Shown piece after piece: positions 25,206-27,543 of a stretch of DNA of 64,000 nt (position 1 is the stretch's first letter; every line of letters starts with the position of its first letter). Below the pieces are notes generated by a model that saw nothing but the letters and a program-made list of their open reading frames with translations, searched no databases and was not told where the DNA came from. Position numbers and translations under genes: made by a program. This DNA is from an uncultured Gemmataceae bacterium (GTDB lineage: Bacteria; Planctomycetota; Planctomycetia; Gemmatales; Gemmataceae): positions 576,001-640,000 of the forward strand of contig CAVVPN010000011.1 of assembly GCA_963750165.1 (NCBI GenBank), written 5' to 3'.

Positions 25206-26222
25206 TCAGCCCAGGTCGCGGCCGAGCGCCCGGGCCACCTGGCGGCACTCCTGCATCAGCTGGCGGAAGGCCGCGGGCGTCAGCGCCTGGAAGCCGTCGC
25301 TGAGCGCCTTGCCCGGGTCGGGGTGGACCTCCACGATCAGCCCGTCCGCGCCCGCGGCCACCGCGGCGCGGGCCATCGGCACCACCAGGTTCGCCTTGCC
25401 GGTGCCGTGGCTCGGGTCCACCATCACCGGCAGGTGCGTGGTCTGCTGCAGGTGCGGCACCGTCGCCAGCGGCAGCGTGAAGCGCGTGTGGTCCTCGAAC
25501 GTGCGGATGCCGCGCTCGCACAGGATCACCTGCGCGTTGCCCGTTTTGAGGATGTACTCCGCCGCCAGCAGGAACTCGTCCATCGTGGCGCTGGGGCCGC
25601 GCTTGAGCAGCACCGGCAGCTTGCTTTCGCCGACCGCCTCCAGCAGCGGATAGTTCTGCATGTTCCGCGCCCCTACCTGGAGCACGTCCGCGTAGTTGCC
25701 GACCAGCGCCACCTGCTCCGGCGCCATCACCTCCGTCACGACCGCCAGCCCCGTCTCCTCGCGGGCCAGGGCCAGCAGCTCCAGGCCCTTTTCCTTCATG
25801 CCCTGAAAACTGTACGGGCTGGTGCGCGGCTTGAACGCGCCGCCGCGCAGGCCGGTCGCGCCCGCCTCCTTGACAAGGTGCGCGATTTCGAGGATTTGCG
25901 CCCGACTCTCGACCGAACACGGGCCGGCGATGACGCCGATGACCTTGCCGCCGACCTGGAGCCGGCGGGCACTGACGCAGGTGCGCTCCTTCTTGACCTC
26001 GGTGCTCGCCATCTTGTACGGGGCCAGGATCGGAACCACTTTCTCCACCCCTTCCAGTGTCTCGAGCGCCTGCTTGGCGCCGTCGCGCTTCTCGCCGAGG
26101 GCCGCCACCACCGTGCGCTCGGTGCCGACGATCACCTGGCTGTTCAGTCCGAGTTGCCGGATGCGCTCGACCACGTCGTCGAGCAGGCGCTGCGCCGCGC
26201 CCGGTTTCATGACCACGATCAT
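25206..26222 (-). CDS. aroF: 3-deoxy-7-phosphoheptulonate (DAHP) synthase, type I-beta with N-terminal regulatory domain
   Basis: [41 protein letters not shown] and DPSHG motifs. Confidence 0.95.
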
Positions 26223-26329
26223 TGGGAAACTCCCTGGGGTACTGGTTACGGAACCTGCGCTCTTCCCTGCGACCCTGCCGGCGTTTCCCTCCGCCAGAAG
26301 AACCGTCCTGCCGTGAGGTCGCACAACTG

Positions 26330-26391
26330 CCGTACCGGCAAGCGGCCCGCTTGCCGGTTGTCGTCGGCAAGCGGGCCGCTTGCCGGTACGG
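26330..26391. repeat. REP-like palindrome in the aroF 5' region
   Basis: ccgtaccggcaagcggcccgcttgccg...cggcaagcgggccgcttgccggtacgg. Confidence 0.85.
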
Positions 26392-26397
26392 GGCACA

Positions 26398-26441
26398 CAA
26401 ACGCAAACGGCCCTGAAACCCGTGTTGGGTTTCAGGGCCGT
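26398..26441 (-). terminator. Attenuator terminator upstream of aroF
   Basis: Perfect 15-bp stem (26407-26421 with 26427-26441), followed on the minus strand by TTGCGTTTG. Confidence 0.75.
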
Positions 26442-26471
26442 GAGTGTTTCAAGAGCAAACCCGGAACCACC

Positions 26472-26534
26472 TCACATCCTGACACCCAGGAGAGGGGTAA
26501 AGTAAAACCAGAACCGGGAAACCAAGCTCTGCAT
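26472..26534 (-). CDS. Aromatic-amino-acid leader peptide MQSLVSRFWFYFTPLLGVRM
   Basis: Manual translation shows five consecutive aromatic codons upstream of the terminator and aroF. Confidence 0.8.
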   Translation of the reverse strand: MQSLVSRFWFYFTPLLGVRM

Positions 26535-26549
26535 CGTCAATCCGGGTTG

Positions 26550-26588
26550 GAAAAGAGGCCCCGCGGTGAGATAGACACCGCGGGGCCT
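26550..26588 (-). terminator. Intrinsic terminator
   Basis: 13-bp stem aggccccgcggtg/caccgcggggcct, followed on the minus strand by CTTTT. Confidence 0.65.
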
Positions 26589-26770
26589 TACGAACAAATT
26601 ACGGCTGCACCGACGGCAGCCCGTCGGCGGCGTCAGCTCAGCCGCACCTGGTTACCACTACACACGGGACCACCTCCTTCCGCTAGACACTCCCCAGCCC
26701 CGGGCGGATACCAGCACACACGGGGGTGGGCTCTAGCCCGTCACGCCACGGTAGCGCGACCCGATCAAAC
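26550..26770 (-). ncRNA. Candidate structured small RNA or micro-ORF transcript
   Basis: Bounded by a promoter and a terminator. Contains several hairpins, the extended SD GGAAGGAGGTGGTCC and a 10-codon ORF at 26633-26665. Confidence 0.4.
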
Positions 26771-26776
26771 AAAGAG

Positions 26777-26805
26777 ATCATACACACGACCGAAAACCGG
26801 GGCAA
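26777..26805 (-). promoter_or_regulatory. Sigma70-type promoter
   Basis: TTGCCC-N17-TATGAT with TG dinucleotides just upstream of the -10. Confidence 0.6.
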
Positions 26806-26871
26806 GCGGTTCGCGCCTTTTTCTCGATTTCCCGCCCGGCGCCGCGGCCGCACAATCTCTATAATGCCGGC

Positions 26872-27543
26872 ATGTATGTATTGCTGTTTGACATCGACGG
26901 CACCCTGCTGAACAGCGGCGGCGCCGGAAAGTCCGCCATCGAGGAAGCGCTGGCGGTCCAGTTCGGCGTCGCGGTTACCGCTCAGGTAACCTACAGCGGC
27001 CGTACCGACCGCGCCATCGGCCGCGACCTGCTGCGGCTGCACGGCATCGCCGAGACGGCCGAGAACTGGCAGCGGCTGCTGACCGGCTACCTGGAGCGCC
27101 TGCCGGCGGCCCTGGCGCGACACCGCGGCCAGGTGTTGCCGGGCATCGCGGAACTGATCGGACAGCTGGAGGCGCGGACGGACGCGGTGCTGGGGCTGCT
27201 GACCGGCAACGTCCACGCCGGGGCACGGCTGAAGCTCGGCCATTTCGGCCTGTTCGAGCAGTTCGCGTTCGGCGGCTTCGGCGACCACCATTACGACCGC
27301 GACGAGGTGGCGCACCTGGCCCTGGCGGCGGCGCGGGCGCATCTGAAGCGTGAGGTTGCCGCGGAGCGGGTGTGGGTGATCGGCGACACGCCGCTGGACG
27401 TGCGCTGTGCGCGGGCCATCGGGGCGCGGGCCGTGGCGGTGGCGACCGGCTGGCATTCGCTGGGGGAGTTGGCGGCGGTGGGGCCGGACGTGCTGGTGGC
27501 GGATTTGTCGGACCCGCTGCCGCTGCTGGAGCGGTTGACCTGA
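26872..27543 (+). CDS. HAD-superfamily hydrolase (phosphoglycolate phosphatase-like)
   Basis: LLFDIDGTL, LLTGN and VIGDTPLD motifs. Confidence 0.92.
   Translation: MYVLLFDIDGTLLNSGGAGKSAIEEALAVQFGVAVTAQVTYSGRTDRAIGRDLLRLHGIAETAENWQRLLTGYLERLPAALARHRGQVLPGIAELIGQLEARTDAVLGLLTGNVHAGARLKLGHFGLFEQFAFGGFGDHHYDRDEVAHLALAAARAHLKREVAAERVWVIGDTPLDVRCARAIGARAVAVATGWHSLGELAAVGPDVLVADLSDPLPLLERLT

What the first reader, a model, noticed from the sequence alone, without database searches (positions are those of the whole stretch)
26398..26534. Phe/Trp/Tyr leader-peptide attenuator upstream of DAHP synthase
Seen: an unannotated minus-strand ORF at 26534-26472 encodes MQSLVSRFWFYFTPLLGVRM, with F-W-F-Y-F at codons 8-12. 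Downstream is a perfect 15-bp hairpin with a U-rich tail. The leader's 3' end (mRNA UGGGUGUCAGG..GUGAG, 26488-26471) is complementary to the terminator 5' arm and the bases just before it (CUCAC...CCUGAAACCCA; 10/11 plus 5/5), forming a mutually exclusive antiterminator. Known: this is the geometry of trp/phe-type ribosome-mediated attenuation, and DAHP synthase is the entry step for all three aromatic amino acids. Inference: one leader integrates all three charged-tRNA pools. I do not know of a description in Planctomycetes, but I cannot search the literature.
Basis: partly seen in the sequence, partly recalled or inferred. Interest (0 to 1): 0.85.

Follow-up and report, generated by a model that had tools for sequence, protein, structure and literature searches.

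The report
Aromatic leader-peptide attenuator before DAHP synthase
A 20-codon mini-gene packed with phenylalanine, tryptophan and tyrosine codons, followed by a predicted switchable transcription stop, sits before the first enzyme of aromatic amino-acid synthesis here and in most related planctomycetes examined, and likely lets a stalled ribosome turn that gene up when these amino acids run short: a textbook kind of switch in a group where my searches found no report of it.

Summary
Observation confirmed: ORF 26534-26472 (FWFYF at codons 8-12), a 15-bp hairpin at 26441-26407 and a competing helix (10/11 + 5/5 pairs) lie upstream of a type I-beta DAHP synthase. It is the only such aromatic ORF among 1036 short-ORF/terminator pairs in the genome. 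The same layout precedes 63 of 102 Planctomycetota orthologs; 57 of 67 leaders hold Phe, Trp and Tyr, and the antiterminator arm pairs best with its own terminator. Best reading: a classical ribosome-mediated attenuator (0.85). That all three amino acids are sensed is inferred only (about 0.65). It sits about 20 nt behind the weak-tailed terminator of a conserved rre-like mini-mRNA, so read-through likely feeds it. Precedents: Corynebacterium aroR (Phe-Tyr-Phe; responds to Phe, not Tyr) and an Acholeplasma aroF uORF. My searches found no report for Planctomycetota. This scan has noted the element before (15 notes, at least 12 other genomes). Solid, moderately interesting.

The parts
26777..26805 (-). 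Sigma-70-like promoter (TTGCCC-17-TATGAT); the only one found in 26200-27100; likely drives the upstream small RNA and, by read-through, the leader
   Evidence: 1 found, 0.2 expected; a TAGAAT-like box at the same place in many relatives
26550..26770 (-). Conserved single-copy structured small RNA of rre/CC2171-like build, directly upstream of the leader; ends approximate
   Evidence: single copy in the genome; found upstream of aroF in 30 of 119 regions; 10 of 27 consensus pairs show a compensatory change; Rfam CC2171 25.5 bits, below its cut-off of 75
26668..26680 (-). Extended Shine-Dalgarno of the upstream RNA, 13 pairs with this genome's own 16S 3' end
   Evidence: -21.6 kcal/mol
26633..26665 (-). 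10-codon ORF of the upstream RNA (GTG start; MCSGNQVRLS); 9-11 codons in all 30 relatives
26549..26588 (-). Terminator-like hairpin of the upstream RNA (13 bp, -29.7) with a short tail (4 T in a row); likely leaky
26472..26534 (-). Leader ORF, 20 codons, MQSLVSRFWFYFTPLLGVRM; no SD, no adjacent -10 box
26499..26513 (-). Control codons TTC TGG TTT TAC TTT (Phe-Trp-Phe-Tyr-Phe)
26466..26498 (-). Predicted protector (1:2) hairpin, which hides the antiterminator arm when no ribosome covers it
   Evidence: (-14.3)
26426..26488 (-). Predicted antiterminator (2:3): 26488-26471 pairs with 26444-26426, which includes the terminator 5' arm
   Evidence: (-26.6)
26397..26441 (-). Intrinsic terminator (3:4): 15-bp stem 26441-26407 plus interrupted U tail
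26331..26390 (.). Perfect 26-bp palindrome in the read-through 5' region of aroF; a few partial look-alikes elsewhere in the genome; probably a REP-like insertion, not part of the switch
   Evidence: -60.7
25206..26222 (-). aroF, type I-beta DAHP synthase (PRK08673 subfamily), 338 aa, with its own SD

Best explanation
This is most likely a ribosome-mediated transcription attenuator: a ribosome translating the 20-codon leader would stall on Phe-Trp-Phe-Tyr-Phe when a charged aromatic tRNA is scarce, the predicted antiterminator would then form, and RNA polymerase would read on into the DAHP synthase gene. With ample aminoacyl-tRNA the ribosome would reach the stop codon, cover the antiterminator arm and let the 15-bp terminator form; without translation the protector hairpin would do the same. 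Shown: the sequence layout, its conservation and the computed folds. Inferred: translation of the leader, the switch in the cell, and a response to each of the three amino acids (about 0.65 for all three; Phe is the safest). In this lineage the leader has no promoter or SD of its own, so its RNA likely arrives by read-through of the weak terminator of the rre-like RNA upstream (about 0.6); how ribosomes start on it is open.
For: Conservation: leader (5 or more F/W/Y in 8 codons) plus terminator in 67 of 119 ortholog upstream regions, 63 of 102 in Planctomycetota, this locus included. Background: 1 of 1036 in the genome. Composition: Phe in 67, Tyr in 64, Trp in 60, all three in 57 of 67 clusters. 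Translation signal: the nearest upstream ATG is in frame in 54 of 65 clusters picked without a start-codon condition, a third expected; 22 of 50 leaders without the upstream-RNA motif have a -10 box 5-8 nt before the ATG, against 21 of 467 control ATGs. Antiterminator: own pairing averages -18.6 against -15.0 for swapped partners, 0 of 10000 permutations; -19.5 against -8.9 and -10.0 for flanking control segments, better in 54 of 56 for each; better than the swap with the nearest relative in 20 of 29 disjoint pairs, worse in 8, p = 0.0013. Switch: mean energy of the free nascent RNA is -30.9 with the ribosome at the first aromatic codon, -24.2 at the last, -2.9 at the stop; here -27.6 at codons 8-11, -22.5 at 12, -1.9 at the stop. 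F, W and Y each lie 12 nt or more before the arm in 53 of 67. No leader was seen before trpE or pheA and TrpR was not found (genome 93% complete). A Leu-rich leader before leuA shows the same design in this genome.
Against: No expression data for the leader. It has no SD and no -10 box, and its first codons are predicted to be paired; only 1 of 17 leaders behind the upstream RNA has a -10 box. The terminator tail is among the 2 weakest of 67. 39 of 102 Planctomycetota regions, and 11 of 24 in the own family, fail the strict test; about seven more pass at 4 of 8 codons; L024 and L028 keep the terminator with no leader. The own partner is the best partner in only 7 of 67, and only 34 of 67 beat their shuffles at p <= 0.05. 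At equilibrium the terminator always wins at full length, so the switch must be kinetic, which I did not model. This leader has one Trp and one Tyr codon; in C. glutamicum aroR the Tyr codon gave no Tyr response. Relatives are not independent, so p-values overstate.
Confidence: 0.85

Rival explanations
1. Same attenuator, but in practice it senses only Phe (or Phe and Trp); the Tyr and Trp codons are weak contributors.
For: Phe is 232 of 449 aromatic residues in the clusters and the last aromatic residue in 54 of 67. C. glutamicum aroR responds to Phe and not to Tyr (PMC11802643). Trp is missing from 7 and Tyr from 3 of 67 clusters.
Against: Trp makes up 94 of 598 cluster residues and is kept in 60 of 67; W+Y codons number 197 in frame against 0 and 41 in the other frames (the frame was chosen for aromatic content, so this is partly circular); all three lie far enough from the arm in 53 of 67.
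Confidence: 0.3
2. Relic at this locus: the leader is no longer translated or transcribed efficiently behind the upstream RNA, the weak-tailed terminator simply leaks, and aroF is expressed at a fixed level.
For: No SD, no -10 box, paired start region; weak tail; relatives that lost the leader but kept the terminator (L024, L028) or lost both (L016, L035, L037, L040); a second I-beta DAHP synthase lies behind pheA.
Against: ATG, frame, cluster, stop and a 15-pair antiterminator are all intact here, and its duplex beats 64 of 66 swapped partners. SD-less leaders behind the same RNA are kept in more than a dozen genomes, each from a different genus bin.
Confidence: 0.08
3. Arrest peptide: the aromatic nascent chain itself stalls the ribosome (TnaC- or SecM-like, recalled) in response to a free amino acid or a drug, rather than through uncharged tRNA.
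For: The cluster is usually followed by Thr or Ser (39 of 67) and then Pro or Gly (34 of 67).
Against: Order and number of F, W and Y vary freely and leader length runs from 16 to 48. The residue after the cluster is ACC in 19 of 21 Thr and AGC in 15 of 18 Ser, which points to an RNA constraint. The gene controlled makes exactly these amino acids.
Confidence: 0.05
4. No translation: the U-rich stretch is an RNA element (pause or protein-binding site) and the aromatic codons are a by-product of U richness.
For: TTT outnumbers TTC 159:45 in leaders against 91:300 in the aroF genes of the same loci.
Against: In-frame ATG in 54 of 65; promoter-defined leaderless ATGs in 22 of 50; TGG and TAC are kept although they are not U-rich.
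Confidence: 0.02

Closest known systems
Corynebacterium glutamicum aroR-aroF attenuator (Mentz et al. 2013, PMC4046766, passages read; Neshat et al. 2014 not held, seen only as summarised in PMC11802643, passages)
   Same: Leader peptide with aromatic codons in front of a DAHP synthase gene; attenuation by ribosome stalling.
   Different: aroR has Phe-Tyr-Phe, no Trp, and responded to Phe but not Tyr. Here Trp is in 60 of 67 clusters, which are longer. Different phylum; common origin was not tested.
uORFC-13-1 motif of Acholeplasma (Brewer et al. 2021, PMC8632094, passages read)
   Same: Predicted uORF with Phe codons and an adjacent terminator, upstream of aroF (3-deoxy-7-phosphoheptulonate synthase).
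   Different: 24 examples, Acholeplasma and environmental; described with an RBS and at least one Phe codon; no Trp or Tyr cluster or antiterminator in the passages I read.
E. coli trpL, pheL and pheM attenuators (PMC11802643) and the Shewanella leuA attenuator (PMC2659441, passages); multi-amino-acid thr and ilv leaders (recalled, no call)
   Same: Four-segment layout: control codons, protector, antiterminator, terminator; spacing of about a ribosome footprint.
   Different: They control terminal branches or a synthetase; this one controls the shared entry step and carries all three aromatic codons. PMC2659441 also lists Shewanella aroF as a possible Tyr-tRNA attenuator. This leader lacks an SD; many relatives look leaderless.
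rreB/rreR small mRNAs with extended SD (Hahn et al., PMC5711450, abstract and section 18 read) and Rfam CC2171 (RF01867), for the upstream RNA only
   Same: Long complementarity to the 16S 3' end, GTG start, short ORF, own terminator.
   Different: 13 pairs here against 16-17; about 220 nt with two extra 5' hairpins; reported for Alphaproteobacteria; Rfam score 25.5 against a cut-off of 75.

Membership tests
Ribosome-mediated (leader-peptide) transcription attenuators | Short upstream ORF with clustered codons for the pathway's end products | tested here: met
   FWFYF at codons 8-12 before DAHP synthase; 63 of 102 orthologs; 1 of 1036 in the genome
Ribosome-mediated (leader-peptide) transcription attenuators | Intrinsic terminator between leader and gene | tested here: met
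   15-bp stem with an interrupted U tail; a terminator starts 18-87 nt after the stop in the 67 leaders counted
Ribosome-mediated (leader-peptide) transcription attenuators | Antiterminator exclusive with the terminator and placed so that ribosome position decides | tested here: met
   computed only:
Ribosome-mediated (leader-peptide) transcription attenuators | Leader is translated (usable start site) | tested here: inconclusive
   in-frame ATG in 54 of 65 and leaderless promoters in relatives, but no SD or -10 box at this locus
Ribosome-mediated (leader-peptide) transcription attenuators | Read-through rises on limitation of the cognate amino acid and depends on the codons | not testable with these tools
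   needs Term-seq, Ribo-seq or reporters
C. glutamicum aroR-type leader | Phe-Tyr-Phe codons upstream of a DAHP synthase | tested here: met
   codons 10-12 are Phe-Tyr-Phe (motif)
C. glutamicum aroR-type leader | Sequence homology to aroR | not tested
   the aroR sequence was not fetched; no NCBIfam model matches the leader and no Rfam leader family matches
Catalogued riboswitch or T-box (Rfam) | Match to an Rfam cis-regulatory family at its cut-off | tested here: not met
   24 weak hits in 26200-26900, all below gathering score, none a T-box, riboswitch or amino-acid leader
rre-type mini-mRNA (upstream RNA) | At least 16 nt complementary to the 16S 3' end before a GTG short ORF | tested here: not met
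   13 pairs in the 13-nt 16S segment tested, GTG and 10-codon ORF present; works like rre, not shown to be a member
rre-type mini-mRNA (upstream RNA) | Co-sediments with 30S subunits | not testable with these tools
   shown for rreB in PMC5711450 (abstract)

The most novel reading that the evidence does not exclude
In Gemmatales aroF sits under two ribosome-read elements in series: an rre-like ribosome-holding RNA whose leaky terminator meters how much transcript passes (and which may deliver the ribosome to an SD-less internal leader), and then an attenuator that sums the charging of tRNA-Phe, tRNA-Trp and tRNA-Tyr. DAHP synthase would thus respond both to ribosome status and to all three aromatic amino acids, and the locus would give a readout for the unexplained rre-type RNAs.
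Probability: 0.15. Interest if true: 0.72.

Novelty: new variant of a known kind. Interest (0 to 1): 0.4.

Why it matters
It extends classical attenuation to Planctomycetota, where my searches found no report, and names a likely main RNA-level control of aromatic amino-acid synthesis in a genome where trpE and pheA show no leader and TrpR was not found. A leader with all three aromatic codons at the pathway's entry is a clean test of whether one peptide can sum three tRNA pools, a question the C. glutamicum case left half answered. The SD-less leader behind an rre-like RNA also raises a testable question on how ribosomes start on internal leaders. The mechanism itself is textbook.

Tried and rejected
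RNA data: 7 public RNA runs held only 5-6% of the words, all as contigs. Near-identical contigs cover 26602-26765, the upstream RNA (151 nt with 0 differences in X4; 164 nt with 1 difference in X5 and in X7). Nothing covered 26201-26585, so they say nothing on the leader, on read-through or on levels, and DNA in the libraries is not excluded. Paralog control: 0 of 20 upstream regions of the second aroF clade have a leader, but here that paralog follows pheA directly, so these regions are probably mostly coding and the control is weak; I rely instead. The first genome scan hid the target through a filter error and was redone. Rfam and NCBIfam gave no family for the leader. The TATCT loop as a -10 box for the leader was considered and not accepted: the spacing to a -35-like word is off and the loop persists in L155, where the RNA is not next to aroF. 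The upstream RNA as an aroF-specific cis switch was rejected as the main reading because look-alikes L153-L155, L157 and L159 lie before other genes (9 of 201 genomes matched the exact pattern, some by chance). Longer frames through the region (26597-26472, 41 aa; 26396-25206) are extensions without support. Neshat et al. 2014 was not held. The leuA family search failed on its id; leuA was judged from the translation. Paper searches gave nothing useful. Attenuator surveys from subscription journals (Vitreschak 2004, Lopatovskaia 2010; recalled) were not read, and no supplements were opened; a listing there is not excluded.

Full report
1. The observation. The minus-strand ORF 26534-26472 reads MQSLVSRFWFYFTPLLGVRM, with TTC TGG TTT TAC TTT at codons 8-12. 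A 15-pair hairpin lies at 26441-26407 (-30.4 kcal/mol), followed by an interrupted U tail with 6 T in 9 nt. A protector hairpin 26498-26466 (-14.3) completes the four-segment layout. The gene behind starts at 26222 and is a type I-beta DAHP synthase (PRK08673, 484 bits against a cut-off of 335). The nearest titled orthologs are mostly Gemmataceae or Gemmatales records, so the genome is probably from that group (inference).

2. More than chance. Of 1036 short-ORF-plus-terminator pairs in the genome, one has five or more F/W/Y in eight codons: this one. The 158-nt region folds at z = -5.4, with 0 of 200 shuffles as stable. No Rfam family reaches its cut-off and no NCBIfam model matches the peptide.

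3. Relatives. I took about 700 nt upstream of aroF orthologs. Dropped before counting: own-genome paralogs, 3 regions under 350 nt, 2 partial matches and 3 duplicates, leaving 119. The set favours close hits; one search scanned 4 of 64 parts of the collection. A leader (5 or more F/W/Y in 8 codons, 8-50 codons long) plus terminator was found in 67 of 119: 63 of 102 Planctomycetota, this locus included, and 4 of 17 others (L102, L105 and L113 titled Chloroflexota, L112 unnamed). In the own family it is 13 of 24. About seven more pass at 4 of 8. Clusters hold Phe in 67, Tyr in 64, Trp in 60 and all three in 57 of 67.

4. Is it translated? With clusters picked without a start-codon condition, the nearest upstream ATG is in frame in 54 of 65 (3 more had no ATG); a third is expected. 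Of 50 leaders without the upstream-RNA motif, 22 have a -10 box ending 5-8 nt before the start, the mark of a leaderless mRNA, against 21 of 467 control ATGs; three of those 50 (L019, L022, L036) do show that RNA's last hairpin, so the split is imperfect. Leaders generally lack an SD: median -3.2 kcal/mol against -7.2 for aroF. TTT outnumbers TTC 159:45 in leaders against 91:300 in the aroF genes, which may reflect slow decoding or avoidance of structure.

5. Is it a switch? The stretch after the cluster pairs with its own terminator 5' arm at -18.6 on average, against -15.0 for swapped partners (0 of 10000 permutations); but the own partner is the best in only 7 of 67, and 34 of 67 beat their own shuffles at p <= 0.05. 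It beats equal-length 5' and 3' control segments in 54 of 56 each (-19.5 against -8.9 and -10.0). Against the nearest relative the matched pairing is better in 20 of 29 disjoint pairs, worse in 8 and tied in 1 (p = 0.0013). Masking 12 nt past the A-site codon, the free nascent RNA folds at -30.9 (first aromatic codon), -24.2 (last) and -2.9 (stop) on average; at this locus -27.6 for codons 8-11, -22.5 for 12 and -1.9 at the stop. All three amino acids have a codon 12 nt or more before the arm in 53 of 67. These are equilibrium folds; at full length the terminator always wins, so the switch must be kinetic. Kin are not independent and the p-values overstate.

6. The leader ATG lies about 20 nt behind another terminator-like hairpin (26588-26556) and has neither an SD (-3.9 kcal/mol) nor a -10 box; its first codons are predicted paired. 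That hairpin ends a single-copy RNA of about 220 nt with the only promoter found in the region (26805-26777), a 13-pair match to this genome's 16S 3' end and a 10-codon GTG ORF whose length stays 9-11 codons in 30 relatives; 10 of 27 consensus pairs show compensatory change. It resembles the rre mini-mRNAs (PMC5711450; lead) and weakly Rfam CC2171. Look-alikes elsewhere in the phylum lie before other genes, so it is probably a gene of its own that is syntenic with aroF in this lineage. Only 1 of 17 leaders behind it has a -10 box. The T run after its hairpin has a median of 3 in 13 loci with a leader and 7 in 7 loci without (p = 0.004; groups assigned by hand, 10 of 30 loci left out). This fits read-through feeding the attenuator, but it is indirect. 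L024 and L028 keep the attenuator terminator with no leader, and L016 has aroF 14 nt behind a long T run, which shows that the switch can be lost.

7. Genome context. No aromatic leader was seen before trpE, its paralog or pheA (the tyrA start was not located, so tyrA is unchecked). TrpR was not found (93% complete). A second I-beta DAHP synthase follows pheA. A Leu-rich leader with the same terminator style precedes leuA on C12.

8. Mechanism. Likely sequence: transcription from about 26770 passes the leaky first terminator; a ribosome starts at 26534; if a charged aromatic tRNA is scarce it stalls at codons 8-12, the antiterminator forms and aroF is transcribed; otherwise it runs to the stop, covers the arm, and the terminator forms. 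Layout, conservation and folds are shown by calls; translation, read-through, the in vivo switch and the response to each amino acid are inferred. Confidence: attenuator 0.85, all three amino acids sensed about 0.65, read-through as source about 0.6.

9. Comparison with what is known. C. glutamicum aroF has a Phe-Tyr-Phe leader (PMC4046766, passages); a review reports that it responds to Phe and not to Tyr (PMC11802643, passages; the primary paper was not held). Acholeplasma aroF has a predicted Phe uORF with terminator (PMC8632094, passages). Shewanella aroF is listed as a possible Tyr attenuator (PMC2659441, passages). PMC4833913 (first of three parts read) counts leader genes in Planctomycetes but names no aromatic attenuator in that part; PMC12125101 (passages) had nothing relevant; bioRxiv 2022.01.24.477521 (passages) confirms CC2171 expression without a function. 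Searches found no report for Planctomycetota; the library lacks most subscription papers and I opened no supplements. It works like a classical attenuator and meets the three structural criteria; translation is inconclusive and regulation untestable here.

10. Earlier notes of this scan. Fifteen notes in at least 12 other genomes describe the same element, and one note on this genome proposes read-through from the upstream RNA (seen after my tail count). These are not independent evidence.

11. Verdict. A real feature and a new variant of a known kind: three-amino-acid leader, new phylum, SD-less and here stacked behind an rre-like RNA. Interest 0.4. The bolder two-tier reading has probability about 0.15 and would merit about 0.7.

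Noticed in passing
window 26550-26805 (-): Conserved rre-like mini-mRNA gene (promoter, 13-pair SD, 10-codon ORF, terminator); a CTGGT loop in its second hairpin could pair with ACCAG inside the ORF. Near-identical contigs in several public RNA runs cover 26602-26765.
   Followed up: partly
G000 contig C12, 512613-512675 (+), terminator just after: Leu-rich 20-codon leader (five Leu in eight codons) with antiterminator-like fold and terminator before leuA; leuA itself appears frameshifted about 100 nt after its ATG, which may be an assembly error.
   Followed up: partly
window 26331-26390: Perfect 26-bp palindrome (-60.7 kcal/mol) in the aroF 5' region, with a few partial look-alikes on C3 and C12.
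   Followed up: partly
window 26548-26541 and 26463-26456 (-): The stretch before the leader ATG can pair (8 bp) with the stretch just after the stop, closing the whole leader into one domain; it could shut off re-initiation once transcribed. Conservation not tested.
   Followed up: no
L113 (Anaerolineae), about 210-110 nt upstream of aroF: Leader with six Tyr codons in a row plus terminator: a Tyr-dominated version outside Planctomycetota.
   Followed up: no
L102 and L105 (Chloroflexota), 570-690 nt upstream of aroF: Aromatic leaders with terminators followed by another short gene before aroF; its start looks like an AroH-type chorismate mutase (recalled, not tested).
   Followed up: no
L024 and L028, between the upstream RNA and aroF: Attenuator-type terminator kept directly behind the upstream RNA's terminator with no leader ORF between: two terminators in a row before aroF.
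   Followed up: partly
L052, L054, L057, L060, L065, L079, L145: A Trp-heavy, Tyr-poor leader subtype (for example WWWSWAF) in Isosphaeraceae-titled and neighbouring loci.
   Followed up: no
G000 contig C11, 1127393-1128484 (+): Third DAHP-synthase-like gene whose N-terminal part and catalytic part match in two separate pieces.
   Followed up: no
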